From a virus, in IMG/VR virus record IMGVR_UViG_3300006072_001582: 13,403 nucleotides of DNA; one strand, 5' to 3'. The first letter of the stretch is position 1, and every line of letters starts with the position of its first letter. The notes below the pieces were generated by a model that did not search any database, was not told the DNA's origin, and saw only the letters and a list, made by a program, of their open reading frames with translations. Shown in pieces: positions 200 to 10,928 of the stretch. The position numbers and the translations under genes are program-made.

Positions 200-568
200 T
201 TACTGCTCAGCCTGAGCAGCGTTGAGCTCAGCCATAGCAGCGTAGAACTTAGCCCAAGCAGCCTTGACCTCAGGCTTAGACAAAGCAGCGTCGTACTTAG
301 CCAAAGCAGCGTGGTACTCAGCCCAAGCATCGTCGAACTCAGCCTCGGCAGCCTTGAACTCAGCCTGAGCAGCGTAGTACTCAGCCTTAGCAGCGTCACG
401 CTTAGCCCAAGCAGCGTCCTGCTTAGCCTCGTACTTAGCCTCAACAGCCTCGTACGCAGCCAAAGCAGCCTCGTACTCAGCCTTAGCCTCAGCAGTCATG
501 AGCTCAGCCGCAGCAGCGTAGTGCTCAACCAAAGCCTTAGCAGCGTCGATCGTTGTTACTTCCTTCAT
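200..568 (-). CDS. Ala-rich (about 45% Ala) acidic protein, probably alpha-helical, built on a 7-residue repeat with the consensus pattern x-A-A-x-A-x-aromatic
   Basis: 122-aa ORF with ATG at 566-568 and TAA at 200-202, preceded by a GAGGAGG RBS at 574-580. Aromatic residues (Y/F/W) recur every 7 residues at positions 32, 39, 46, 64, 71, 78, 85 and 92, and again at 54 with an 8-residue gap. The heptads read AEYEAAL, AAYEAVE, AKYEAKQ and so on. The overlapping frames 142-444(-) and 311-601(+) are low-complexity shadows of the same repeat. Confidence 0.7.
   Translation of the reverse strand: MKEVTTIDAAKALVEHYAAAAELMTAEAKAEYEAALAAYEAVEAKYEAKQDAAWAKRDAAKAEYYAAQAEFKAAEAEFDDAWAEYHAALAKYDAALSKPEVKAAWAKFYAAMAELNAAQAEQ
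215..545. repeat. imperfect 21-nt periodic tandem repeat at the DNA level, underlying the heptad repeats of the 200-568 protein
   Basis: Units of the form agcagcgt(a/c/g)gtactcagcc(t/c)tagc / cagcctcgtac recur about every 21 nt (for example 281-301, 302-322, 365-385, 386-406). The base composition is dominated by gca/gcc/gcg strings. Confidence 0.6.
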
Positions 569-1416: not shown

Positions 1417-2082
1417 ATGGCACAATTCAACGACTGGTCAAAGAGCTACCAGAACTCACTTGGCAATGCAAAAATGGCGGCGATTAGAATCGCTGAGAAT
1501 AGATACCAAACGCGTGATGAATACGAAAAGAACAAGCCTAACGTCCCTAATGCAAGAATGGTTGATGAAGTCCGTAATAACCACAATGACGTTATGGACA
1601 GCATTGGGAAGTTCCAGCAAGGCGTTGGCAAAATTAATGAGATGCACCAAGAAGTACTGAAGCGCACACAACCAGGCGTTAACCAAAAGAGCCTTGTGGA
1701 ACACTATAGTGATCTTATGGAAAAGCATTTCCCCACAGAGCAGACAAGCACAAAGAGCAAGGCTCCTCAGACAAACATTAGCAAAGAAGTAACAAATCCT
1801 AACGTTCCTCTTAATTCAAGAGTGAAAATGATGCAAGACCCAGACACTAAGTACGACCCACAAGTCTACAAGCACGTTCGCGATGTGCCACCACTTAAGC
1901 CTAAGAGTGCTTCTTTCGCTGAGCGTTACGCCAACGATAACTCAATGGGGGAAAATAAGCCTATGGATGGGCACATCCCAGGCAATTCTCGCTACTGCTA
2001 CAACTGTGGAAACACCCAAGACATTGTTTGGGACCCAAGTCAAGAATACGGTACTGGATGGATTTGCCGTGGTGGTTGCTAA
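1417..2082 (+). CDS. hypothetical protein (221 aa) with a C-terminal zinc-ribbon-like motif (CYNCGNTQ...WICRGGC). Its N-terminus (NDWSKSY) resembles the WSKRYAAE motif of the 4188-5202 paralogs.
   Basis: Long ORF, the first in the plus-strand block. Cys motif is C-x2-C-x17-C-x3-C at the C-terminus. The minus-strand overlapping ORFs (1446-1667, 1456-1728) look like shadows. Confidence 0.7.
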   Translation: MAQFNDWSKSYQNSLGNAKMAAIRIAENRYQTRDEYEKNKPNVPNARMVDEVRNNHNDVMDSIGKFQQGVGKINEMHQEVLKRTQPGVNQKSLVEHYSDLMEKHFPTEQTSTKSKAPQTNISKEVTNPNVPLNSRVKMMQDPDTKYDPQVYKHVRDVPPLKPKSASFAERYANDNSMGENKPMDGHIPGNSRYCYNCGNTQDIVWDPSQEYGTGWICRGGC

Positions 2083-2188: not shown

Positions 2189-3304
2189 ATGTTCAACAGC
2201 AGAGAAGCTGCAAAACACGATAAGCAATTCAAGACTGGCGGACCTGCCAACGCTATGACGCTTATCTTCCAAGAGGGTACTGGCTACGCCACCCACAAGG
2301 AAGACCCTGAGTACTATCATGTGCCTCATGCTGCTGAGAAAGCCGCTAATCACTACATAGGTAGCCTTGGTGAGGGCGAAGAGCCCAATCCTGACGCAGT
2401 GCGTTTGTTTGGCTTGAAGCAAAGCAAAAAGGGCGACTGGTATCACAGTCGCGCTCACTCGCAGCTTGCCAACGTTAAAACCGCAAGTGACTACATGACC
2501 GTTGCTGTTCGCAACAAGACCACTGGTAAGCCTTACAAGCTCGAGCAGGGTATCCATCAACCTACTATGATGATTGCTCCCAGCGAAGAGGGCCACCTGG
2601 ATGATCGTGCTTTCCGTGCCGGTGAACACGTGAATGCAAAGACTGGTGAGCGTTTGATGGTCCACCCACTCTCAGCTTTGGGCCAATCGCACATTGAAAC
2701 GATCATGGCATTCAACGAGGGTAAGCGTAATGGCATCAAGGACCCTAAGTTCTACCGAGATGCCATGAAAACTGTCAGTGATCACACCCATGGTGACCTT
2801 GCAGTGCACCACGCATTCAACCACACCATCAATAACATGTGCAATACGCACGATGCTATCGATCCTGTTGAGCAAAATGTCATCGATCAGGGTAAAACTG
2901 CCCGTTTTGTTAAGTGTTTCTGCCCATACTGCGTTGTAAATGACAGTACTCACCCCACAAACCAGCTTTGGGACATGCAACACCACGAAGAAGCAGCCAA
3001 AAGAACTCAAGATCCCAAGATTAGAGCCGCTTATTTCGCTGGTTTCCCCGTTTCTAAGGAAGCTGGAGAGTTTGGTAAGGTCGGAAGACGTTCACACCAC
3101 CGTGTTTTGTATGGTACGAAGGCTGAACAGACCATTATCAACCACCATGTCAACTTTAGACAGGACGAAGACAACCATGCAGCTGTAGTTGCACCAAGAG
3201 TACGTCATCGTGCGAGAGGTGGAGAGGGTGTTTCTCACCTTTACAGTCCTTCAACAGCTATAAATAGAGCTGTTCACGCTGATGATAGCTACTCTGGCGA
3301 ATAA
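2189..3304 (+). CDS. hypothetical His-rich protein (371 aa) containing a CFCPYC motif
   Basis: Long ORF with an AGGAG RBS at 2176-2180, 8 nt before the ATG. No recognisable catalytic motif. Many His and HH pairs suggest metal binding. Confidence 0.75.
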   Translation: MFNSREAAKHDKQFKTGGPANAMTLIFQEGTGYATHKEDPEYYHVPHAAEKAANHYIGSLGEGEEPNPDAVRLFGLKQSKKGDWYHSRAHSQLANVKTASDYMTVAVRNKTTGKPYKLEQGIHQPTMMIAPSEEGHLDDRAFRAGEHVNAKTGERLMVHPLSALGQSHIETIMAFNEGKRNGIKDPKFYRDAMKTVSDHTHGDLAVHHAFNHTINNMCNTHDAIDPVEQNVIDQGKTARFVKCFCPYCVVNDSTHPTNQLWDMQHHEEAAKRTQDPKIRAAYFAGFPVSKEAGEFGKVGRRSHHRVLYGTKAEQTIINHHVNFRQDEDNHAAVVAPRVRHRARGGEGVSHLYSPSTAINRAVHADDSYSGE

Positions 3305-3376: not shown

Positions 3377-3769
3377 ATGTCAAACAACTGTGACTGTGAA
3401 ACTTGCAAGAACATAGCAAAGTACAGTGATACTACAGAGAAAAGTGCATATGTCTCCCGGTTTAAGGAGAGTATTGCCCAGATTTCCTCTCTTTCAGATG
3501 ATTTCTCCATCGATAAGCCAAAAGATGACGATGAAGACCACACTTATCGTATTAACGTAAGTGAATACTGTCAGCATGACGGTGTTTTTGTAGAATATTC
3601 AAGAGAAATCACCTTTTCTGCTTTCCAGATGATCATGGAAGAGCTTTTTTCGTCAGATGAAGACGATTTTGACCTAGATAACGACGAATATGAAGATGAT
3701 ATACGCGTTTTTGGCAGTTTAGACGAAGTTATTGACTACCTTCAGCAAGATAGAAGGGAAAAAGACTAA
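3377..3769 (+). CDS. highly acidic small protein (130 aa) with an N-terminal C-x-C-x2-C motif and Asp/Glu-rich C-terminal half
   Basis: The ORF follows the promoter and RBS above. It reads MSNNCDCETCKN..., then DDDEDH, SSDEDDFDLDNDEYEDD. The stop overlaps the next start (TAATG at 3767-3771). Confidence 0.75.
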   Translation: MSNNCDCETCKNIAKYSDTTEKSAYVSRFKESIAQISSLSDDFSIDKPKDDDEDHTYRINVSEYCQHDGVFVEYSREITFSAFQMIMEELFSSDEDDFDLDNDEYEDDIRVFGSLDEVIDYLQQDRREKD

Positions 3770-4191
3770 TGACCGTCGAAGAACACGACCAGAACATCAC
3801 TCATCATTACACCGTTCACTATCCACCTCACCCAGAGCGTGAAGATGACCCACATTACGTCGATTTTCACCATTTCCGTGAGAAAACGAAGGCAACAGCT
3901 AAATGTGCTATCGGTGAACACCGCAATGACTTCAGTGAGTGCGACTCTGAGCACCCTTTGGAGCTTCACCACACTCATATTGAGTTCTCATTGCAGAATG
4001 GCGTCGATCTTAAGTGGCTCGAAGTCGATTACCCCGGCGTTAGCGACCCAGACACCGTTGGTGCATGGGTAGAGAGCGCAACAAACCTGGAATGGCTATG
4101 CCTTTTCCACCACAGAGGTCATGGTGGCAAACACGTCACAGCTTACAGTGACTTTGAGGCAGCAAAATACGTGAGAGGACTCATCAAATGA
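3769..4191 (+). CDS. His-rich HNH-like nuclease fold protein (140 aa)
   Basis: The sequence ...CAIGEHRNDFSEC...LELHHTHIEFSLQNGVDL...ATNLEWLCLFHHRGHGGKH fits the HNH pattern: C...C, HH, N, then N-L-x-x-L-C-x-x-H-H...H. It is translationally coupled at both ends (TAATG at 3767, ATGA at 4188). Confidence 0.55.
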   Translation: MTVEEHDQNITHHYTVHYPPHPEREDDPHYVDFHHFREKTKATAKCAIGEHRNDFSECDSEHPLELHHTHIEFSLQNGVDLKWLEVDYPGVSDPDTVGAWVESATNLEWLCLFHHRGHGGKHVTAYSDFEAAKYVRGLIK

Positions 4192-4379
4192 GTAATTGGT
4201 CTAAAAGATACGCAGCAGAAAGCTGTTCATGCCATGGCTGGCCTAAACTGCAATGCCCTAACACTACTGAAGCAGAAAAACACATTATTTCTGAACTGAG
4301 TAGACAAGAAGGGCCATCTATTGGACAAGAACACTCACGCAGTAAAGAAGTAGCCGATTGGATCCTTGGAGAAGATTAA
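4188..4379 (+). CDS. small Cys-containing protein (63 aa), paralog 1 of the N-terminal WSKRYAAE-motif family
   Basis: N-terminus MSNWSKRYAAES, then SCSCHGWPKLQCP. The start overlaps the upstream stop (ATGA) and the stop overlaps the next start (TAATG). Confidence 0.7.
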   Translation: MSNWSKRYAAESCSCHGWPKLQCPNTTEAEKHIISELSRQEGPSIGQEHSRSKEVADWILGED

Positions 4380-4834
4380 TGAATTGGAAAAGAAGATACG
4401 CAGCTGAAGATACCTTTGGTTATGGTGATCCACACTACTTTGAGAAGCTGATTGATCACGCCAACTCAGGCAACCCCAAGCTTATTCAAAAGAAGCATGT
4501 TGATGATGCTAGGCGACACGGTATTACCGAAGACGAAATGATGCATGCCTATACCCAGGGTCACAATATCAGTTTATATGTTAGTGCACGTGCACGCAAT
4601 GATCCATGGCTTGGTGGCCCAGAAGCTTTAGAGCCCAGACTGCTAGCTACACATGATGAAGCGATTGACGCTCTCAACAAAAATGTTATTCCCAATCACT
4701 ATAGCTTGCTTAGATCAGTTGGAGAAACAATAGTCAATGGACGTCATAACCCCAACCCAACACCGCTGAGCCACGATGCTGCTGTAGCAAAATCAGGCAA
4801 GATGACTCCGTCAGAACGACAGAAATACTTCTAA
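4379..4834 (+). CDS. hypothetical protein (151 aa), paralog 2 of the WSKRYAAE-motif family
   Basis: N-terminus MNWKRRYAAED. I prefer the start at ATG 4379 over the upstream in-frame ATG 4358 because it reproduces the paralog N-terminus and has GGAGAAG 6 nt upstream. TAATG overlap at both ends. Confidence 0.7.
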   Translation: MNWKRRYAAEDTFGYGDPHYFEKLIDHANSGNPKLIQKKHVDDARRHGITEDEMMHAYTQGHNISLYVSARARNDPWLGGPEALEPRLLATHDEAIDALNKNVIPNHYSLLRSVGETIVNGRHNPNPTPLSHDAAVAKSGKMTPSERQKYF

Positions 4835-5202
4835 TGTCTTGGTCAGAACGTTACGCTGCTCGTCCTGACCAATGTCAGCTCTGTGGTGCATCAGATGATG
4901 GCACCCACACAATCGTTAGCAGCGGTAGGTGCAAAGACACTACCGATTGCGAGAACACGCAGAAGTACTTAGCAGAGAACCCACAGCCAGAGCCTCCTAA
5001 GAAAACTAGGAAAGCACCTTACGTAGACCGCAAGGGTATGGCTGCATGTGCTCATGGCGACTGCCAAGGTAAGAAGTACGAAGCAAAATACATGCATTGG
5101 TCTGATTCTTCAGTGCCAAGGCCATATTGCAACACTCACTCGTTCCTTGCAGGCAAAACTGGTTTGACTTTTAGTCAATGGAAAGATGTTTATGGGAGAT
5201 AA
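4834..5202 (+). CDS. Cys-rich basic protein (122 aa), paralog 3 of the WSKRYAAE-motif family
   Basis: N-terminus MSWSERYAARPD, then CQLCG...GRCKDTTDC...CAHGDCQGKKY...YCNTH. TAATG overlap with the upstream gene. Confidence 0.7.
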   Translation: MSWSERYAARPDQCQLCGASDDGTHTIVSSGRCKDTTDCENTQKYLAENPQPEPPKKTRKAPYVDRKGMAACAHGDCQGKKYEAKYMHWSDSSVPRPYCNTHSFLAGKTGLTFSQWKDVYGR

Positions 5203-5204
5203 TA

Positions 5205-5933
5205 ATGACTGATCGTATTGTTGGTAAATTAGGTAAGCTAGATCCTAAGCGCCCTGCTGGGTTGCACATGCTTGCTTTCTATCAGGGCAACCCGTTGCCA
5301 GCTGCACCAGAGAGCGTAGCAGTGCCAAACGTAGATAATTGGGGAATGTTAGGAAATGATAAATATGGGGATTGTACTTTTGCTGGTATTGTTCACGCCA
5401 GAATGGCTAACGCTGCTTTCTTACAACTTACAGAAGGATTCCCTTCTGACACCGAAGTCGAGCAAAGTTATCTCAATTATACGAATGGACAAGATGCTGG
5501 AGCGGTCGAGGCGGACCTACTAAAGTACTGGCAGACCAACGGCTTGTTCAACACAAAGCTTGCTGCGTTCGCCCCTACTGACCATGCTGACCTTGATGAG
5601 CTCCGTAGCGTAATTGCCTCATATGGGCTTGTATACATTGGTGTAAAGCTCCCAGTCACCTTCCAGCAGCAATTCCTTGACAACCAGCCATGGGACCTTA
5701 CAGGCACTCCTGCTGACAATCAGATCGAAGGTGGCCACTGTGTCATCCTCGTAGGTTACGACAAGGACTACGCTGAATGTATTACCTGGGGTAAAGTGCA
5801 GAAGGTAACGTGGAGATGGCTGCAAAGCTACATGGAAGAGAGCTGGGCTCTCATCACTCCAGAGATTGTTGAAAAGGGTCAATATGGCGATATGCGCCTT
5901 GAAGACCTCACTACTGACCTAGGAAAACTATAA
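5205..5933 (+). CDS. papain-like (C1-type) cysteine peptidase, 242 aa
   Basis: Motif order and spacing are as in the papain fold. They are NDKYGDC-TFAG (Asn/Gln six residues before the catalytic Cys), GGHCVILVGYD (compare papain HAVAAVGY) and ECITWGKV (compare NSWG). I prefer the start at ATG 5205 (GGGAGA 7 nt upstream) over the in-frame ATG 5178, which overlaps the previous gene. Confidence 0.55.
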   Translation: MTDRIVGKLGKLDPKRPAGLHMLAFYQGNPLPAAPESVAVPNVDNWGMLGNDKYGDCTFAGIVHARMANAAFLQLTEGFPSDTEVEQSYLNYTNGQDAGAVEADLLKYWQTNGLFNTKLAAFAPTDHADLDELRSVIASYGLVYIGVKLPVTFQQQFLDNQPWDLTGTPADNQIEGGHCVILVGYDKDYAECITWGKVQKVTWRWLQSYMEESWALITPEIVEKGQYGDMRLEDLTTDLGKL

Positions 5934-7012
5934 TGGCTACTATCCCACCAAGACTTAATGAGATCCTTGAAGAACAAGGTGACAAGGTTCGAATTGTTGC
6001 TAACGTTGGCCCAATGCAATACAAGACTGGTGGCACGTTCTCTGGTCTTCTTGTTGAAGCAATGGTTGGAGACGAAAGAATCGGTTATTTCACTGCTGAA
6101 AAGCAAGCTAGTGGCAACTACATCATGGATGGTGTTTACGTCGAGCCAGAATACCGAAACCAAGGCATTGCAACAGAAATGCTGCGCAAAGCGCACGCAA
6201 CTGTTAACGTTATTCCTTATGCATTGACAGATAACCAAGTTTACCAGTCAGAAGCTGGTAAGGGGTTCGCTGCTAAGGAACTTCGCATGGTCACAGCAAG
6301 CACAATTGTGACTGCTGGTCCTCTTCTTGCTATCCCAGAGCTTCTTGGTGCTGGAGAAGCAGTCGCTGGCGCTGGAGAGGCCGCTGCAGGTGCAGAAGGT
6401 GGTGGCCTTAGCGATGCATTGAAGAACTTGCCTAGTAGCAACTCAAGCGGTAATGAAAATGGCGACAATAGCAATGATATCAACAATACGCCAGATTCTG
6501 GTGGTGGACAGAGCTTTGCAAGCCCTGCTAACCCCGTAGTTGGTAGCATCATGCCTCTCGAGACTCACCCATTGGCTCCTACTAAGCCAATCACAGTTCC
6601 ACCTTTCACTGTTCCTGGTAAGCCATCAAAGACTCCTCCTAGCACACCACAACCATCTCCCACAACTTGGCAGCCAGCTCCTAAAACAATTGGTGATAAA
6701 ACAGAAGCTATGCCAGAACCTTCTCTTGAAGAAGAAACTTCTACTAAGAGTGAGCAAGAGACTAGTAACCCACCACAACAGAAAACTAAGCTTGAAACTG
6801 GTCAAGAACCAATGCCTACAAAGCAAACGCCAGAAAAAGGGTCATCTGGTCCTGGAGCAGGAATTAACCTTGAGCTTAATTTCCCACAAACTATATCTAA
6901 CTTCCCAACGCCAGCTCGACCAATCACTGGTAGCAGCAATAGATTAATTGATTTGTTGAATGAAGATCGTTTCAATTCAACTAACAATGACAAACCAACC
7001 AGCTGGGAATAA
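5933..7012 (+). CDS. N-terminal GNAT-family acetyltransferase-like domain (about 125 aa) fused to a long Pro/Thr/Ser/Gly/Glu-rich tail (about 230 aa) predicted to be disordered
   Basis: GNAT motif A is recognisable: VYVEPEYRNQGIATEMLRKA, matching V-x-V-x-P-E-x-R-x-x-G-I-A. The rest of the protein is GAGEAVAGAGEAAAGAEGGG, NSSGNENGDNSNDINN, PPFTVPGKPSKTPPSTPQPSPTTWQPAPK and similar. TAATG overlap with the upstream peptidase gene. Confidence 0.55.
   Translation: MATIPPRLNEILEEQGDKVRIVANVGPMQYKTGGTFSGLLVEAMVGDERIGYFTAEKQASGNYIMDGVYVEPEYRNQGIATEMLRKAHATVNVIPYALTDNQVYQSEAGKGFAAKELRMVTASTIVTAGPLLAIPELLGAGEAVAGAGEAAAGAEGGGLSDALKNLPSSNSSGNENGDNSNDINNTPDSGGGQSFASPANPVVGSIMPLETHPLAPTKPITVPPFTVPGKPSKTPPSTPQPSPTTWQPAPKTIGDKTEAMPEPSLEEETSTKSEQETSNPPQQKTKLETGQEPMPTKQTPEKGSSGPGAGINLELNFPQTISNFPTPARPITGSSNRLIDLLNEDRFNSTNNDKPTSWE
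6314..7009 (+). other. low-complexity coding segment (Pro/Thr/Ser/Gly/Gln/Glu-rich) within the 5933-7012 gene
   Basis: Translation is dominated by P, T, S, G, E, Q, N with no hydrophobic core. The shadow ORFs 6241-6552(-), 6540-6947(+) and 6626-6826(-) arise from this region. Confidence 0.6.
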
Positions 7013-7047: not shown

Positions 7048-8328
7048 ATGAGATACGCTACGCAGGATAACGGTAATTACGGAGACGATGCTTCGCTACG
7101 AGGCATTGAAGACGCTACCGAAGAAGACGATGCAGGGTTTGGCCTTCCAGGACAAAGCCAAGTCGGTACTGTTGGCCACTTTAGATTTGCAGACATTGGT
7201 AACGAAGACGAAAACTCTACGAGATTGACTGCTTTGGGCGATGAGCCTAAGGATACAATTGATCTCGAGGGGCAACCACCAGTTGTAAGCAATGAAGGGC
7301 TTTCTAGCGTATCTCCAGGATCGCTATCAACAATTATTGGAGCAAACATGAGCATGAATGCAAGAATTGCATACGTGATGGAGAATGGTGAGCCATTCTG
7401 TAATCACTGCGAAAAGACATACTTCCCAGGAACACGCATTGCATGCACAAATTGTGGTTGCAACCAGCCTGCTAATGACCACGGCATTGGCGAAAATAAC
7501 TTCTCGGGTGAGAGCCTTACAACAGTAGAAGGCCCTACTGCTGGCGACCTTGATGCTGGGCGTGACATCGTTAAGGAAGAAGCCAAGATGGGTGCCGCTG
7601 GTGCTTTCTACGCTATGTTCAAAGAAGCTAACGACAGTGAGCTTTACTACCAAGGCTACGGCGATGCACAAGCCGGTAAGCCAATGGACGAGGATCTTGC
7701 CCTCTTGAGCAAGGACTACTACAACGGTTACACACAATACAAGTTCTACAACAAGACCCCTCAGCAGAGCGAAGGTCAAAGCTTGTATGACATTAAACCA
7801 AATAGCAACTTAATTCCTCGTTCACACGATATGACACCTGGCGAAGCTGATCGTGGTCCTCTTGAGCTGACTGATGGTTTTGGTCACGCCACTGCATCCA
7901 AGCAAGCCGGTATGTATGATGCTGCACACATGTTCATGGATCGTAAAGACTCCCAAAAGGATGATACCAATAACTATCATGCAACTTTGCGTGATAATCA
8001 CCTCAATGCTGCTAACAAGTTGCAGGGTAACACTCCATGGACAGGAAGAACAAACTCCGATGGTTCTCCAGAGTTTCATGGTGCTGATACTTTCCATGGT
8101 AACAACCCTGATCACAGAGAAGCTTACTTCGCACACATGGATGCAGCAGAAGCACATGGAAAAGCTATAGCGACTCCTGGAACTGGCATGAACTACAACA
8201 AAGCTAAAAACAATGCAGATGTTGCTTCTAGAGCAGCTTGGGCAAAAGACCCAACGAACCCACCTGCTGCAAGAACTTCATCTATCGGTCTCCCCGTTGA
8301 TGTTCTCGAAAAGTTCTTTAGGTTCTAA
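7048..8328 (+). CDS. hypothetical protein (426 aa) with an internal Cys4 zinc-ribbon (CNHCEKTYFPGTRIACTNCGC)
   Basis: Long ORF. The first ATG is at 7048 (N-terminus MRYATQDNGNYGDD). No recognisable enzymatic motif. It is rich in Asp/Asn/Gly/Tyr. Confidence 0.7.
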   Translation: MRYATQDNGNYGDDASLRGIEDATEEDDAGFGLPGQSQVGTVGHFRFADIGNEDENSTRLTALGDEPKDTIDLEGQPPVVSNEGLSSVSPGSLSTIIGANMSMNARIAYVMENGEPFCNHCEKTYFPGTRIACTNCGCNQPANDHGIGENNFSGESLTTVEGPTAGDLDAGRDIVKEEAKMGAAGAFYAMFKEANDSELYYQGYGDAQAGKPMDEDLALLSKDYYNGYTQYKFYNKTPQQSEGQSLYDIKPNSNLIPRSHDMTPGEADRGPLELTDGFGHATASKQAGMYDAAHMFMDRKDSQKDDTNNYHATLRDNHLNAANKLQGNTPWTGRTNSDGSPEFHGADTFHGNNPDHREAYFAHMDAAEAHGKAIATPGTGMNYNKAKNNADVASRAAWAKDPTNPPAARTSSIGLPVDVLEKFFRF

Positions 8329-9720: not shown

Positions 9721-10242
9721 ATGGACAATTGGAATGGCTTTAGAGTCGTCAGTGCAACAGAAGTAGAAGACGACACTAGAAACCCAGAATATGAAGAAGA
9801 TGTTAGTGATTTGGTCACTGCTCTGAAAAGAATGCTTGCTGAAGCATACGTTCTCTATCACACTATTCATGGTTTCCACTGGAATGTTGTTGGTAATGAC
9901 TTCTATCAATATCACAAGTTCTTTGATGAGATCGTAGATGATATCTACGAAAACATTGACCCAATTGCAGAAAACATCAGAAAGCTTGATGCTAAAGCTC
10001 CTTTTGTAATGAGCCAATTGTCTGGACTTAGTAGAATTAAAGAAGTAGGTTCTAACGATGATGATGCACGTAATCTTGCTAAGCAATTCTTAGATATGAA
10101 TAACGAATACATTGATCACATTAAAAAGGTCTTTGTTCTTGCTGACAAAGATAACGAGCAAGGTATTGCAAACTTCATTGCTGAACGCATTGATCAACAC
10201 CAAAAGTGGAGTTGGTTCTTGAAGGCGTCTACCGAGGCATAA
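9721..10242 (+). CDS. dps: Dps-like / ferritin-superfamily protein (173 aa)
   Basis: Strong match to the Dps signature: LYHTIHGFHWNVVGNDFYQYHKFFDEIVDDIYENIDPIAENIRKL (compare Dps Y-x-K-x-H-x-FHW-x-V-x-G-x-x-F-x-x-x-H-x-x-F-E-E...D-x-IAERI). The C-terminal ADKDNEQGIANFIAERIDQHQKWSWFLKA also resembles the Dps helix-D region. The ferroxidase-site residues (His and Asp/Glu) are present. Confidence 0.8.
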   Translation: MDNWNGFRVVSATEVEDDTRNPEYEEDVSDLVTALKRMLAEAYVLYHTIHGFHWNVVGNDFYQYHKFFDEIVDDIYENIDPIAENIRKLDAKAPFVMSQLSGLSRIKEVGSNDDDARNLAKQFLDMNNEYIDHIKKVFVLADKDNEQGIANFIAERIDQHQKWSWFLKASTEA

Positions 10243-10474: not shown

Positions 10475-10771
10475 ATGGCATTAGAATTACCTGAAGGTAT
10501 TACGTACAACGATAATATTTCTAACGAAATAGAACTAGAATTTGTAAACGAAGTTGTAAATGATACAAAATGTAACGTATGTGACTTGCATTTTCAAGCT
10601 TCACTCGTTACAATTAATAACAAGCACGAAGGTATCGTAAAAACGTTACCTAGTGAAATTATCCTGTGGAAGAACGTTTTGCCAAAGGATCGCGTTAGAT
10701 GCATAAAAATGATCAACGAGACTCTCATTGCAAAACTTGATAAACACAAGGAAAGGCATAGCAATGATTAG
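10475..10771 (+). CDS. hypothetical small protein (98 aa) with a CNVC motif
   Basis: ATG 2 nt after the upstream stop. ORF MALELPEGITYNDN...KCNVCDLHF... Confidence 0.6.
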   Translation: MALELPEGITYNDNISNEIELEFVNEVVNDTKCNVCDLHFQASLVTINNKHEGIVKTLPSEIILWKNVLPKDRVRCIKMINETLIAKLDKHKERHSND

Positions 10772-10928
10772 ATACAGCAACAAGCCAGATAAGAATGCCC
10801 GCGTCATCACAGATAGCCCTACTTCAACAATTAAGACAACTAAGGACGTAGCTGGTCTTAATGATGAAGATAAGCCTAGCGAGAACTATAGAGACTTGCA
10901 GGATCTTGATGCAGAGGACCAGAACTAA
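10764..10928 (+). CDS. hypothetical small acidic protein (54 aa)
   Basis: ATG 10764 with AAGGAAAGG upstream. It overlaps the previous gene by 8 nt (ATGATTAG). The in-frame ATG at 10728 is an alternative start. ORF MIRYSNKPDKNARVITDSP...DLDAEDQN. Confidence 0.45.
   Translation: MIRYSNKPDKNARVITDSPTSTIKTTKDVAGLNDEDKPSENYRDLQDLDAEDQN

What the first reader, a model, noticed from the sequence alone, without database searches (positions are those of the whole stretch)
1417..1460. The first gene of the plus-strand block carries a near-copy of the same N-terminal tag (NDWSKSY versus NWSKRY)
The 221-aa zinc-ribbon protein at 1417-2082 begins MAQFNDWSKSYQNS. Residues 5-11 (N-D-W-S-K-S-Y) match the paralog-1 N-terminus (S-N-W-S-K-R-Y) at 5 of 6 positions, although the gene is 2.7 kb away and on a different codon background (AAC GAC TGG TCA AAG AGC TAC). 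An internal SFAERYANDN also echoes RYAAED. If real, the tag is a portable module found on at least four proteins in this window. The start of the 7048 gene (MRYATQDNGNYGDD versus RRYAAEDTFGYGD) may be a fifth, degenerate instance.
Basis: seen in the sequence. Interest (0 to 1): 0.6.

Follow-up and report, generated by a model that had tools for sequence, protein, structure and literature searches.

The report
Portable leader peptide on phage proteins
A lineage of uncultured freshwater phages puts the same 8-10-residue peptide (M-N-W-x-x-R-Y-A-x-E) in front of well over a hundred unrelated proteins; the start of gene 1417 is at best a diverged cousin of this peptide, and a better match lies inside that protein.

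Summary
The sequence is there as described: codons 5-11 of gene 1417-2082 read NDWSKSY. It matches MSNWSKRY at W, S, K and Y, or 5 of 7 positions if a one-residue gap is allowed.

Taken alone the match is not significant. A tag profile scores it -4 bits, against 13-37 bits for true tags. The chance of such a score is about 0.014 per protein, and 0.11 when its own residues are shuffled.

In 3.0 Mb of related phage DNA, W-x-x-[RK]-Y-[AS] starts 170 distinct proteins and sits at 35 internal module junctions. Scrambled motifs give 0-1 and 1-4. Cargo includes an aminotransferase, a PD-(D/E)XK nuclease and zinc ribbons. Synonymous codons vary freely, so selection acts on the peptide.

Gene 1417's N-terminus is invariant in its homologues. 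It sits where homologues carry an MPFIxD(M)W leader, some with canonical RYA, so it is probably a diverged long form. Its internal SFAERYAND, at a module-swap junction, is the better match.

The tag slot abuts a papain-like (C1) protease that is itself tagged in one subclade. The block runs into the head genes. My best guess, unproven, is a targeting and processing leader like the T4 capsid-targeting sequence.

The parts
1417..2082 (+). First gene of the plus-strand block. It is a 221-aa mosaic protein made of an N-terminal module, a junction tag and a C-terminal zinc ribbon.
   Evidence: ORF. Homologues P0002-P0006, P0129 and P0133. Modules are swapped after the internal tag. The same C-terminal ribbon sits behind a canonical tag in P0134, which starts MKNWNNRYAHE.
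1429..1449 (+). It is probably a diverged long-form leader, not a canonical tag.
   Evidence: Sequence. Profile score -4.0 bits with chance p 0.014 to 0.11. Invariant in homologues. The MPFIxD(M)W leader class links it to canonical tags.
1915..1938 (+). Internal F-A-E-R-Y-A-N-D, a junction-type tag of the F variant, between the N-terminal module and the zinc ribbon.
   Evidence: Scores 10.6 bits, the best site in the protein, against about 3 per million random positions. Conserved as SFAERYAN(E/D) or SFVKRYASE. C-terminal modules differ after it. L007's tag plus ribbon is homologous to the N-terminus of L042, E 7e-9. Caveat: internal F-type motifs as a class are not enriched.
2189..3304 (+). 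Second gene, starting MFNSREAAK. This is a second recurrent N-terminal motif, M(x0-3)FNS[RK], possibly a distant variant of the tag.
   Evidence: N-termini listed. Hybrid N-termini FNSRYA(A/H)G and MSVKFNSRHQSWTQRYSKD link the two motifs. Its profile score is only -1.6 bits.
3769..4191 (+). Conserved 140-aa gene with a weak match to HNH endonucleases. It bounds the variable tag-gene slot on the left.
   Evidence: phrog_8048, E 0.004. 74-86% identity across relatives. It served as the anchor for the metagenome scan that returned 80 loci.
4188..4379 (+). Tagged gene 1 (63 aa): MSNWSKRYAAE followed by a Cys-rich stretch. The tag is at nt 4191-4220.
   Evidence: Profile score 32.8 bits. Its start overlaps the stop of the upstream gene (ATGA).
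4379..4834 (+). Tagged gene 2 (151 aa): MNWKRRYAAED. The tag is at nt 4379-4408.
   Evidence: Profile score 32.9 bits. A homologue is fused behind other modules in the L048 polyprotein (...SSRIRD|WAQRYAAEDTFGYND). P0128 keeps the tag.
4834..5202 (+). Tagged gene 3 (122 aa): MSWSERYAARP followed by a zinc ribbon. The tag is at nt 4834-4863.
   Evidence: Profile score 27.4 bits. A homologue is fused behind an MKC...VIDINTRKRILS domain in L071.
5205..5933 (+). C1-family papain-like cysteine protease (242 aa). It lies immediately after the tag slot.
   Evidence: AF2 model with pLDDT 90.9. Foldseek top hits are xylellain 3ois (E 7e-9, TM-score 0.68), Lpg2622, procathepsins and papain. Cys57 (GDCT) and His178 (GGHC) are invariant. 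One subclade carries the tag on the protease itself.
7048..8328 (+). Conserved 426-aa gene starting M-R-Y-A-T-Q-D, a truncated tag without the W-x-x part.
   Evidence: Orthologues start MRYAAG, MRYATQ, MRYADT or MKYADT.
10764..10928 (+). Small conserved gene (54 aa) starting M-I-R-Y-S-N. This may be another truncated tag.
   Evidence: Orthologues start MIRYST, MIRYSN or MIKYST.

Best explanation
**What it is (shown).** Gene 1417 belongs to a repertoire of phage accessory proteins that share one short peptide.
- The canonical peptide is M-(S)-N-W-[N/S]-x-R-Y-[A/S]-x-[E/D].
- It is the first 8-10 residues of many unrelated proteins.
- It also sits at the boundary between modules in fused multi-module proteins. 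There the residues before W are S-S, G-S or A-S instead of M-N.

**Where gene 1417 fits (probable).** Its internal SFAERYAND is a junction copy of the tag. Its N-terminus MAQFNDWSKSYQ is probably a diverged long-form leader of the MPFIxD(M)W class, not a canonical tag.

**How it likely works (inferred, not shown).** The peptide is a short amphipathic helix on a flexible tether. A helix-capping N, S or D precedes W, and W0, R3, Y4 and E7 lie on one face. I propose that the phage's own assembly or processing machinery reads it in trans. It would be a targeting and processing leader like the 10-residue capsid-targeting sequence of the T4 internal proteins. The adjacent C1 papain-like protease, the prohead protease, or both would separate modules or remove the leader. 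Cleavage after R-Y-A would put Tyr at P2, which suits papain-type enzymes.
For: **The tag is real and portable.**
- 170 unique N-terminal and 35 junction instances, against 0-1 and 1-4 for reversed or scrambled motifs, in 3.0 Mb.
- Dozens of unrelated downstream families.
- Cargo includes a class I/II aminotransferase (3e-33), a PD-(D/E)XK nuclease (2e-29), a ParB-like domain and an RNase_T-type exonuclease.

**Selection is on the peptide.** Synonymous codon use inside 182 unique tag DNAs equals genome-wide use. Two tags typically share only 5-9 nt of exact identity.

**Phage-specific.** The same DNA pattern gives clustered hits in IMG/VR (16 of 33 stretches hold 2-4 matches).

**Standalone and fused forms of the same cargo.** Examples are MNWNKRYANSKIPSKC versus ...TTSSWNKRYANSKIPSKC, and multi-tag polyproteins L048 and L058.

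**Gene arrangement.** 86 of 153 tagged genes start by overlapping the stop codon of the gene before them.

**Link to the protease.**
- The slot abuts a protease with a confident C1 fold.
- 25 of 28 loci whose protease is at least 55% identical to the window's carry tags within 6 kb. None of 39 loci with a protease of 39% identity or less does.
- Five protease clusters carry the tag themselves, for example MNWNKKYLQEKIWRNN-MTDRK....
- AF2 predicts that tag as a helix (residues 3-15) on a low-confidence linker.

**Link to the virion genes.** In two large contigs the tag block lies on the same strand as, and about 12-20 kb upstream of, the genes for portal, head maturation protease, a scaffold-like protein, cement protein and major capsid protein.

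**Precedent.** In T4 the first 10 residues suffice for capsid targeting. Residues 4 and 7 govern targeting and residues 8 and 10 govern processing. The T4 internal proteins are diverse anti-defence proteins that share only this sequence (PMC9026906, PMC3012670). The tag here has aromatic residues at 3 and 7, Ala at 8 and Glu at 10.
Against: - No cleavage or packaging has been observed. Every mechanistic step is inference.
- Glu at +7 is present in only about 35-45% of tags, so Glu-specific cleavage cannot be universal.
- Some cargo, an aminotransferase and a DnaQ-type exonuclease, is odd for capsid contents.
- C1 peptidases are not a known family of prohead protease.
- A distant homologue of the protease sits beside an amidase in an unrelated myovirus. 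In the protease clade without tags it lies among endolysin and holin-like genes. Its role may therefore be in lysis.
- 7 of 22 long tag-bearing IMG/VR contigs showed no protease, though these may be partial genomes.
- None of the structural proteins examined carries the tag.
- For the 1417 N-terminus specifically, the similarity is not statistically significant on its own.
Confidence: 0.4

Rival explanations
1. The tag is only a cleavage and docking site for the neighbouring C1 protease. Multi-module precursors are cut into single modules in the cytoplasm, as in a viral polyprotein, and short leaders are trimmed. There is no role in virion targeting.
For: - C1 fold with an intact Cys/His pair.
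- The slot is contiguous with the protease gene.
- Tags co-occur with the protease clade of at least 55% identity only.
- Polyprotein and split forms of the same modules exist.
- The protease is tagged in one subclade, which is compatible with self-processing.
- Invariant R-Y would occupy P3-P2. The preference of papain-type enzymes for a hydrophobic P2 is from general knowledge, not tested here.
Against: - Standalone proteins would not need a cleavage site, yet 170 of them keep it under strong constraint.
- The protease was not detected on 7 long tag-bearing contigs.
- Homologues of the protease in phages without tags sit among lysis genes.
Confidence: 0.2
2. The tag is a short linear motif that docks many phage proteins onto one host (actinobacterial) factor, such as a chaperone, an unfoldase-protease or a replication hub. 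This would serve localisation or timed turnover.
For: - A short helical peptide on a flexible tether.
- Enzymatic cargo that makes more sense in the cytoplasm.
- The lineage infects Actinobacteria: WhiB on a tag-bearing contig (8e-19), and a major capsid protein 64% identical to that of Cluster C mycobacteriophages.
Against: - No known host-binding motif resembles it.
- The first 50 kb of the related mycobacteriophage Myrna holds no tags.
- The pattern is at chance level in bacterial genomes, so hosts do not appear to use it.
- Internal junction copies are less easily explained.
Confidence: 0.2
3. For the flagged motif itself: NDWSKSY is a separate conserved N-terminal element of the 1417 family. 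Its resemblance to the tag is coincidence.
For: - Profile score -4 bits, with p 0.014 per protein and 0.11 on shuffling.
- It lacks R and A and has an extra D.
- It is embedded in a 20-residue invariant block, unlike tags, which lose conservation right after RYAxE.
Against: - Relatives carry true tag genes in the same slot.
- Protein-body homologue L260 starts MPFIEDMWSKKTAS, and that leader class includes WERRYA and WDVKYA-NSLG-x-K-x-AA forms.
- P0133, MPQFNDWSKGYQ, is intermediate between the two forms.
- One other tag-like family has S at the R position: M[NGD]WVHSY[ARV]D.
Confidence: 0.35
4. The conservation is at the DNA or RNA level: a recombination site for swapping cassettes, or a translation-initiation element.
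For: - Modules are clearly shuffled at tags.
- One tandem double tag looks like a recombination scar: KKMNWNERYASEKTGADWSLIPPAMSNWSKRYAAED.
- Most starts overlap the upstream stop codon.
Against: - Codon choice inside tags matches genome-wide usage. R is AGA 45% / CGT 33% / CGC 12% in tags against 36 / 33 / 13 genome-wide, and Ala and Tyr behave likewise.
- Two tags usually share only 5-9 nt of exact identity.
- Fused junction copies have no start codon yet keep the peptide.
Confidence: 0.04

Closest known systems
Capsid-targeting sequence (CTS) of the T4 internal proteins IPI, IPII, IPIII and Alt
   Same: - A leader of about 10 N-terminal residues is the only thing shared by otherwise unrelated, fast-evolving accessory proteins encoded in variable loci.
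- Aromatic residues matter: T4 positions 4 and 7, positions 3 and 7 here.
- A small or hydrophobic residue at position 8 and Glu at position 10.
- The protease may itself carry such a peptide (PMC9026906, PMC3012670).
   Different: - No sequence similarity to the T4 leader, which I recall as MKTYQEFIAE; the sequence was not verified in the papers read.
- The tag here also occurs internally, at module junctions.
- Glu is not universal.
- The neighbouring protease is papain-like (C1), not gp21-like.
- Packaging and cleavage are untested.
- The phages are relatives of actinobacterial Cluster C myoviruses.
Polyvalent proteins of phages and conjugative elements (Iyer et al. 2017, PMC5512222)
   Same: - Multi-domain, mosaic, rapidly shuffled proteins.
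- They combine ParB-like nucleases, peptidases and other enzymes.
- They are often encoded near late genes and are thought to be processed by their own peptidases and delivered with the DNA.
   Different: - Here most modules are separate small genes.
- A single conserved peptide marks every module boundary, a feature not seen in the parts of that paper that were read (keyword look-up only).
- The protease is a separate C1 enzyme, not an embedded metallopeptidase.
Demarcation motifs of polymorphic toxins (for example VENN in CdiA, DPxGL in Rhs). From my own knowledge.
   Same: - A short conserved motif separates a constant part from interchangeable C-terminal modules.
- 'Orphan' modules that keep the motif lie in tandem.
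   Different: - No paired immunity genes were seen.
- The motif is mostly at the extreme N-terminus of standalone proteins.
- DNA-level homology for recombination is absent.
- The system is phage-encoded and has no secretion domain.
Polyprotein processing by papain-like proteases in eukaryotic RNA viruses, and the Prp/L27-type N-terminal leader mimicked by staphylococcal phage 80alpha capsid and scaffold proteins. From my own knowledge.
   Same: - A cysteine protease recognises a short conserved motif at protein boundaries or at N-terminal leaders of about 10 residues.
   Different: - No cleavage is demonstrated here.
- The modules are mostly separate genes.
- Prp is a host enzyme of a different fold.

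Membership tests
T4-type capsid-targeting sequence | A short (about 10 aa) N-terminal peptide shared by otherwise unrelated phage proteins | tested here: met
   170 unique N-terminal instances fronting dozens of unrelated downstream families, against 0-1 for controls.
T4-type capsid-targeting sequence | The peptide ends in a prohead-protease site (hydrophobic or small residue, any residue, Glu) and is removed during head maturation | tested here: inconclusive
   A/S-x-E is present in about 35-45% of tags and D in about 14%. A head maturation protease exists in the lineage (phrog_18299, 2e-24), but its family and specificity are unknown. Cleavage itself cannot be tested here.
T4-type capsid-targeting sequence | Tagged proteins are packaged into the capsid and ejected | not testable with these tools
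   Needs virion proteomics. The only indirect support is that the tag block shares a strand with the head genes and lies about 12-20 kb upstream of them.
T4-type capsid-targeting sequence | Sequence homology to the T4 CTS, or a T4-like (gp21, gp22, gp23) head module | tested here: not met
   No similarity of the peptide. The major capsid protein is 64% identical to that of Cluster C mycobacteriophages, not to T4-like phages.
Viral polyprotein with papain-like protease | A papain-fold cysteine protease with a catalytic Cys/His pair, encoded with its substrates | tested here: met
   AF2 pLDDT 90.9. Foldseek hits to xylellain, cathepsins and papain (E down to 7e-9). C57 and H178 are invariant. 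The gene abuts the tag slot.
Viral polyprotein with papain-like protease | A conserved motif at every boundary between mature products | tested here: met
   35 junction-type tags against 1-4 for controls. Multi-tag ORFs L048 and L058.
Viral polyprotein with papain-like protease | Cleavage at that motif by that protease | not testable with these tools
   Model coordinates are not returned and no complex prediction is available. An enzyme assay is needed.
Polymorphic-toxin demarcation motif | Nucleotide-level conservation of the motif that allows homologous exchange of downstream cassettes | tested here: not met
   Codon usage in tags equals the genome-wide background. Shared exact runs are mostly 5-9 nt.
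Polymorphic-toxin demarcation motif | A cognate immunity gene after each variable module | not tested
   Tagged genes follow one another directly with overlapping stop and start codons. No systematic search for immunity partners was made.
Canonical tag of this phage lineage (does the 1417 N-terminus belong to it?) | W at residue 3-4, R/K at +3, Y at +4, A/S at +5, with conservation ending after about +8 | tested here: not met
   The sequence is W-S-K-S-Y-Q, with W at residue 7, embedded in a 20-residue invariant block. Profile score -4 bits. It is related through the MPFIxD(M)W leader class, not as a canonical member.

The most novel reading that the evidence does not exclude
These phages use a previously undescribed protein-sorting code. 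One 8-residue helix serves both as the N-terminal leader and as the inter-module junction for more than 100 accessory-protein families. A phage-encoded cathepsin-like (C1) protease and/or the head-assembly core reads it. This would be a bacterial-virus counterpart of polyprotein processing combined with cargo loading, evolved independently of the T4 CTS, and possibly usable to load foreign proteins into actinobacteriophage particles.
Probability: 0.3. Interest if true: 0.85.

Novelty: new variant of a known kind. Interest (0 to 1): 0.66.

Why it matters
**If it is a targeting or processing signal.**
- It would be the second well-defined example, after the T4 CTS, of a minimal portable leader that lets a phage plug arbitrary proteins into a common pathway.
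- It would be the first such example in relatives of mycobacteriophages.
- It flags, in one step, a large and otherwise unannotatable repertoire that evolves like arms-race effectors: hundreds of small 'hypothetical' genes, including nucleases, ParB-like domains and zinc ribbons.

**A directly testable enzyme-substrate pair.** The C1 protease and the W-x-x-R-Y-A peptide can be tested together in vitro.

**A practical use.** The motif is a cheap sequence marker for finding these gene arrays in metagenomes.

**For the finding as written.** A 4-5 residue resemblance in one N-terminus was not significant by itself. It became interpretable only through comparative data.

Tried and rejected
**Searches that found nothing.**
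- Megablast of the window against INPHARED phages gave no match.
- Pfam, PHROGs and NCBIfam gave nothing for gene 1417, the tagged genes or gene 7048.
- An IMG/VR scan with the 1417-family alignment found no locus.
- A sequence search of the PDB with the protease profile gave nothing; only fold comparison worked.
- Gene 4379 has only two database homologues, too few for a useful model.
- Two literature searches for a prior description of such a tag found none.

**Ideas rejected.**
- A DNA-level explanation, either a recombination site or a translation signal, was rejected on codon usage.
- I first took locus L114 for an unrelated small phage carrying tags. That would have argued for a host receptor. 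Its 498-aa protein is in fact 64-74% identical to proteins of the large tag-bearing contigs, so L114 is a fragment of the same lineage.
- A strictly Glu-specific (gp21-like) cleavage rule was rejected because of the variability at +7.
- P0130, which shows 8 repeats of SSNWSKTYQNC, is a translated repeat sequence and is irrelevant.

**Limits.**
- AF2 of a naturally tagged protease returned only secondary structure and confidence, not coordinates. Whether the tag docks in the active-site cleft could not be read.
- The profile used for scoring is circular at W, R, Y and A. A non-circular look showed that +5 tolerates I, K, V, L and T, and found one other family with S at the R position.
Full report
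**1. What is at the coordinates**

ORF 1417-2082 (+, 221 aa) begins MAQFNDWSKSYQNS. Three tandem genes with overlapping stop and start codons begin as follows:
- 4188: MSNWSKRYAAE
- 4379: MNWKRRYAAED
- 4834: MSWSERYAARP

In the six-frame translation of the window, W[SK][KRE][RS]Y occurs four times. Each time it is at the N-terminus of a plus-strand gene. Aligned on W, the 1417 motif shares W, S, K and Y with the tag but has S for R and Q for A. The N before W is displaced by one residue.

**2. The tag is real and far larger than the window suggests**

The window has no close relative among deposited phages. Exact or related copies occur on bog-lake metagenome contigs of up to about 130-140 kb.

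In syntenic relatives, the slot between a conserved gene with a weak HNH-endonuclease match (140 aa) and a conserved 242-aa gene holds 0-4 unrelated genes. In the loci examined first, every one begins with the same peptide. Examples are MSNWNNKYAIDK, MSNLVYRYATDT, VNWNRRYASEL, MNWAQRYASKEY and MSNWYERYANKDY. A few slot genes in other relatives lack it.

I then gathered more loci:
- A metagenome scan anchored on the HNH-like gene returned 80 loci.
- An IMG/VR scan with a degenerate DNA version of the tag returned 33 stretches. Sixteen of them held 2-4 matches within about 1 kb.
All 80 printed rows were single matches in unrelated taxa. About 140 are expected by chance.

Over 3.0 Mb of related phage DNA the counts for W-x-x-[RK]-Y-[AS] are:

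| Class | Tag motif | Reversed or scrambled controls |
|---|---|---|
| Distinct proteins with the motif at the N-terminus | 170 | 0-1 |
| Internal sites with at least 30 open codons upstream | 35 | 1-4 |

After removing the tag, the downstream sequences fall into dozens of unrelated families: 64 in the first data set and 109 in the last, looser one.

Some cargo is ordinary globular enzyme:
- class I/II aminotransferase, 3e-33
- PD-(D/E)XK nuclease, 2e-29
- ParB_N-like domain
- RNase_T-type exonuclease behind MYNSRYANQ

Many other cargo proteins are small Cys-rich zinc ribbons.

**3. Selection acts on the peptide, not the DNA**

Inside 182 unique tag DNAs, synonymous codon choice matches the genome-wide background:
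- Arg: AGA 45%, CGT 33%, CGC 12%, CGA 7% in tags, against 36, 33, 13 and 9 genome-wide.
- Ala: GCT 49%, GCA 33%, GCC 18% in tags, against 48, 30 and 16 genome-wide.

Two tags usually share only 5-9 nt of exact identity.

The position-specific pattern is M(0.64) N(0.68) W R(0.97) Y A(0.86)/S, with E (about 0.35-0.44) or D at +7. I infer a short helix from three observations. The residue before W is N, S or D, which are helix N-cap residues. W0 and Y4, and R3 and E7, are spaced i/i+4. AF2 of a naturally tagged protein predicts residues 3-15 as a helix on a low-confidence linker.

**4. The tag is also a module junction**

The same downstream domain occurs in two forms:
- standalone, for example MNWNKRYANSKIPSKC...
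- fused in frame behind another domain, for example ...RRLTTSSWNKRYANSKIPSKC...

Ten families show both forms.

The window's own genes illustrate this. The homologue of gene 4379 is the last module of a multi-tag ORF in L048. The homologue of gene 4834 follows an MKC...VIDINTRKRILS domain in L071.

Standalone tagged genes are tightly packed. Of 153 such genes, 86 have starts that overlap the upstream stop codon as ATGA or TAATG.

**5. Where gene 1417 fits**

*Homologues.* The homologues share two conserved pieces, while the middle of the protein diverges:
- the N-terminal block of about 20 residues, M(A/P/T)Q(F/Y/T)NDWSK(S/G)YQxSLG
- an internal (A/I)SF(A/V)(E/K)RYA(N/S/G)(E/D)

*The internal motif.* The C-terminal module changes after it:
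- The window and L010 carry the CYNCG...GTGWICRGGC ribbon.
- L007 carries a different ribbon, which is the N-terminus of the first gene in L043 and L042.
- L011 has no tag and a different tail.
- P0134 carries the window's ribbon behind a canonical MKNWNNRYAHE.

The internal motif scores 10.6 bits, the best site in the protein, against about 3 per million random positions. One caveat applies. Internal F-type motifs as a class are not enriched (10 against 10). The case for this site therefore rests on its conservation and its junction position.

*The N-terminal motif.* By profile it scores -4.0 bits, at the top of the noise:
- 6 of 213 non-tag families score as high or higher.
- p = 0.014 under random composition.
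- p = 0.11 on shuffling its own residues.

It is therefore not significant alone, and it is not a canonical tag.

*Evidence that the N-terminus is related to the tag.*
- Gene 1417 lies in a second variable slot, before the MFNS gene, where relatives carry true tag genes (L015, L079, L020).
- L260's first gene is homologous to the 1417 protein body (E 9e-9; E 7e-16 to the L011 orthologue). It starts MPFIEDMWSKKTAS.
- That MPFIxD(M)W leader class spans canonical and relaxed forms: L069 MPFIPDMWERRYASD, L120 MPFIPDPLSPWDVKYANSLGQKIAA, L045 MPFINDMWNIRTAG and L073 MPFIPSVWDRKDD.
- P0133, MPQFNDWSKGYQ, is intermediate.

I put the chance that the 1417 N-terminus is an evolutionary derivative of the tag at about 0.6. 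Whether it still works as one is open.

**6. Context that bears on mechanism**

*The neighbouring protease.* The 242-aa gene after the slot (5205-5933) is a C1-family papain-like cysteine protease.
- The AF2 model has pLDDT 90.9.
- Foldseek top hits are xylellain (E 7e-9, TM-score 0.68), Lpg2622, procathepsins and papain.
- Cys57 and His178 are invariant.

*Its association with tags.*
- Tags lie within 6 kb in 25 of 28 IMG/VR loci whose protease is at least 55% identical to the window's.
- Tags lie within 6 kb in none of 39 loci with a protease of 39% identity or less.
- Five protease clusters carry the tag on a 16-residue N-terminal extension.

*Evidence against a direct link.*
- A distant homologue lies next to an amidase in an unrelated myovirus.
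- In the clade without tags, the protease lies among endolysin and holin-like genes.
- Seven long tag-bearing contigs showed no protease.

*Lineage and gene order.*
- The major capsid protein is 64% identical to that of Cluster C mycobacteriophages.
- A WhiB gene lies on a tag-bearing contig.
- In two large contigs the tag block is on the same strand as the genes for portal, head maturation protease (phrog_18299), an acidic 461-aa scaffold-like protein, cement protein and major capsid protein. It lies about 12-20 kb upstream of them.
- The first 50 kb of mycobacteriophage Myrna holds no tags.

**7. Interpretation**

*Shown.* A peptide-level, phage-specific, portable leader and junction motif exists on a very large and diverse protein repertoire.

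*Inferred.*
- It is a helical recognition peptide read in trans.
- The closest functional precedent is the T4 capsid-targeting sequence. It has 10 residues. Targeting depends on residues 4 and 7 and processing on residues 8 and 10. It is shared by otherwise unrelated anti-defence internal proteins (PMC9026906, PMC3012670).
- The tag here has aromatic residues at 3 and 7, Ala at 8 and often Glu at 10.
- The multi-module forms and part of the domain repertoire recall polyvalent proteins (PMC5512222).

*Conclusion.* I favour a targeting and processing leader that involves the C1 protease and/or the prohead protease, at about 0.4. The rivals are processing only (0.2) and a host-factor docking motif (0.2). 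A DNA-level signal is largely excluded. None of the mechanistic steps is demonstrated.

**8. Verdict on the finding**

The general idea of a portable tag is right and important. The specific identification of the 1417 N-terminus as a near-copy is only partly right.

Noticed in passing
window 2189-2215; L020:1614, 2763, 5345; L021:5567; L114:11033: A second recurrent N-terminal motif, M(x0-3)FNS[RK]xAA, fronts several proteins of unrelated length. Hybrid N-termini (FNSRYAAG; MSVKFNSRHQSWTQRYSKD) link it to the W-x-x-R-Y-A tag.
   Followed up: partly
window 3769-4191: A 140-aa gene with a weak HNH-endonuclease match is 74-86% identical across relatives whose neighbouring genes differ completely. 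It sits at the left edge of the variable slot. A homing-endonuclease role in cassette turnover is conceivable.
   Followed up: no
window 5205-5933; P0079, P0082, P0083, P0089, P0094: The phage encodes a cathepsin/xylellain-like C1 cysteine protease. In its high-confidence model, residues 1-55 are mostly coil (a short helix at 23-26), which may be a pro-region. One subclade has the tag fused to the N-terminus of the protease.
   Followed up: yes
window 5933-7012: A protein with a GNAT acetyltransferase domain has a long Pro/Ser/Thr-rich low-complexity tail. It ends in a conserved T(S/T)WE in most relatives.
   Followed up: no
window 9721-10242: A phage-encoded Dps/ferritin-like protein (PF00210, 7e-20; phrog_3636). 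Its N-terminus, MDNWNGFRV or MTDTWNGFRF, faintly echoes the tag.
   Followed up: no
window 200-568 (-); L043:4204-5794 (-): Minus-strand genes encode Ala/Glu/Lys/Tyr-rich repetitive proteins (...AEAKAEYEAALAAYEA...). L043 has three paralogues. The window and contig L004 share gene coordinates from their left ends, which may mark a shared assembly break in or near this repetitive stretch.
   Followed up: no
L336:11948-12946; L123:1152-1400: The lineage is related to Cluster C mycobacteriophages (Myrna, Bxz1-like), with a major capsid protein 64% identical to theirs. It carries WhiB, so the host is probably a freshwater actinobacterium. The tag is absent from the first 50 kb of Myrna.
   Followed up: partly
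L336:8686-9363: The head maturation protease contains C-S-A-C-G-R-Y-A-S-K-P inside a Cys-rich insertion. This is an RYA string without the W, and is probably coincidence.
   Followed up: no
L029:7134, L039:11187, L048:5608, L071:1460, L075:5505, L086:9502, L092:3968, L100:2821: A recurrent zinc-binding N-terminal domain of about 60 aa (MKC(T/S)..C...PYC.PHA...APVIDIKTR(K/E)RI(G/A)S) is always followed by a junction tag. Different C-terminal modules of 95-550 aa come after the tag.
   Followed up: partly
L058:932-2992: A 687-aa multi-tag ORF contains at least nine tandem repeats of about 30 residues (...YGATHEEILD(S/A)HKHG(I/M)(N/D)LG.Y...) between two tags.
   Followed up: no
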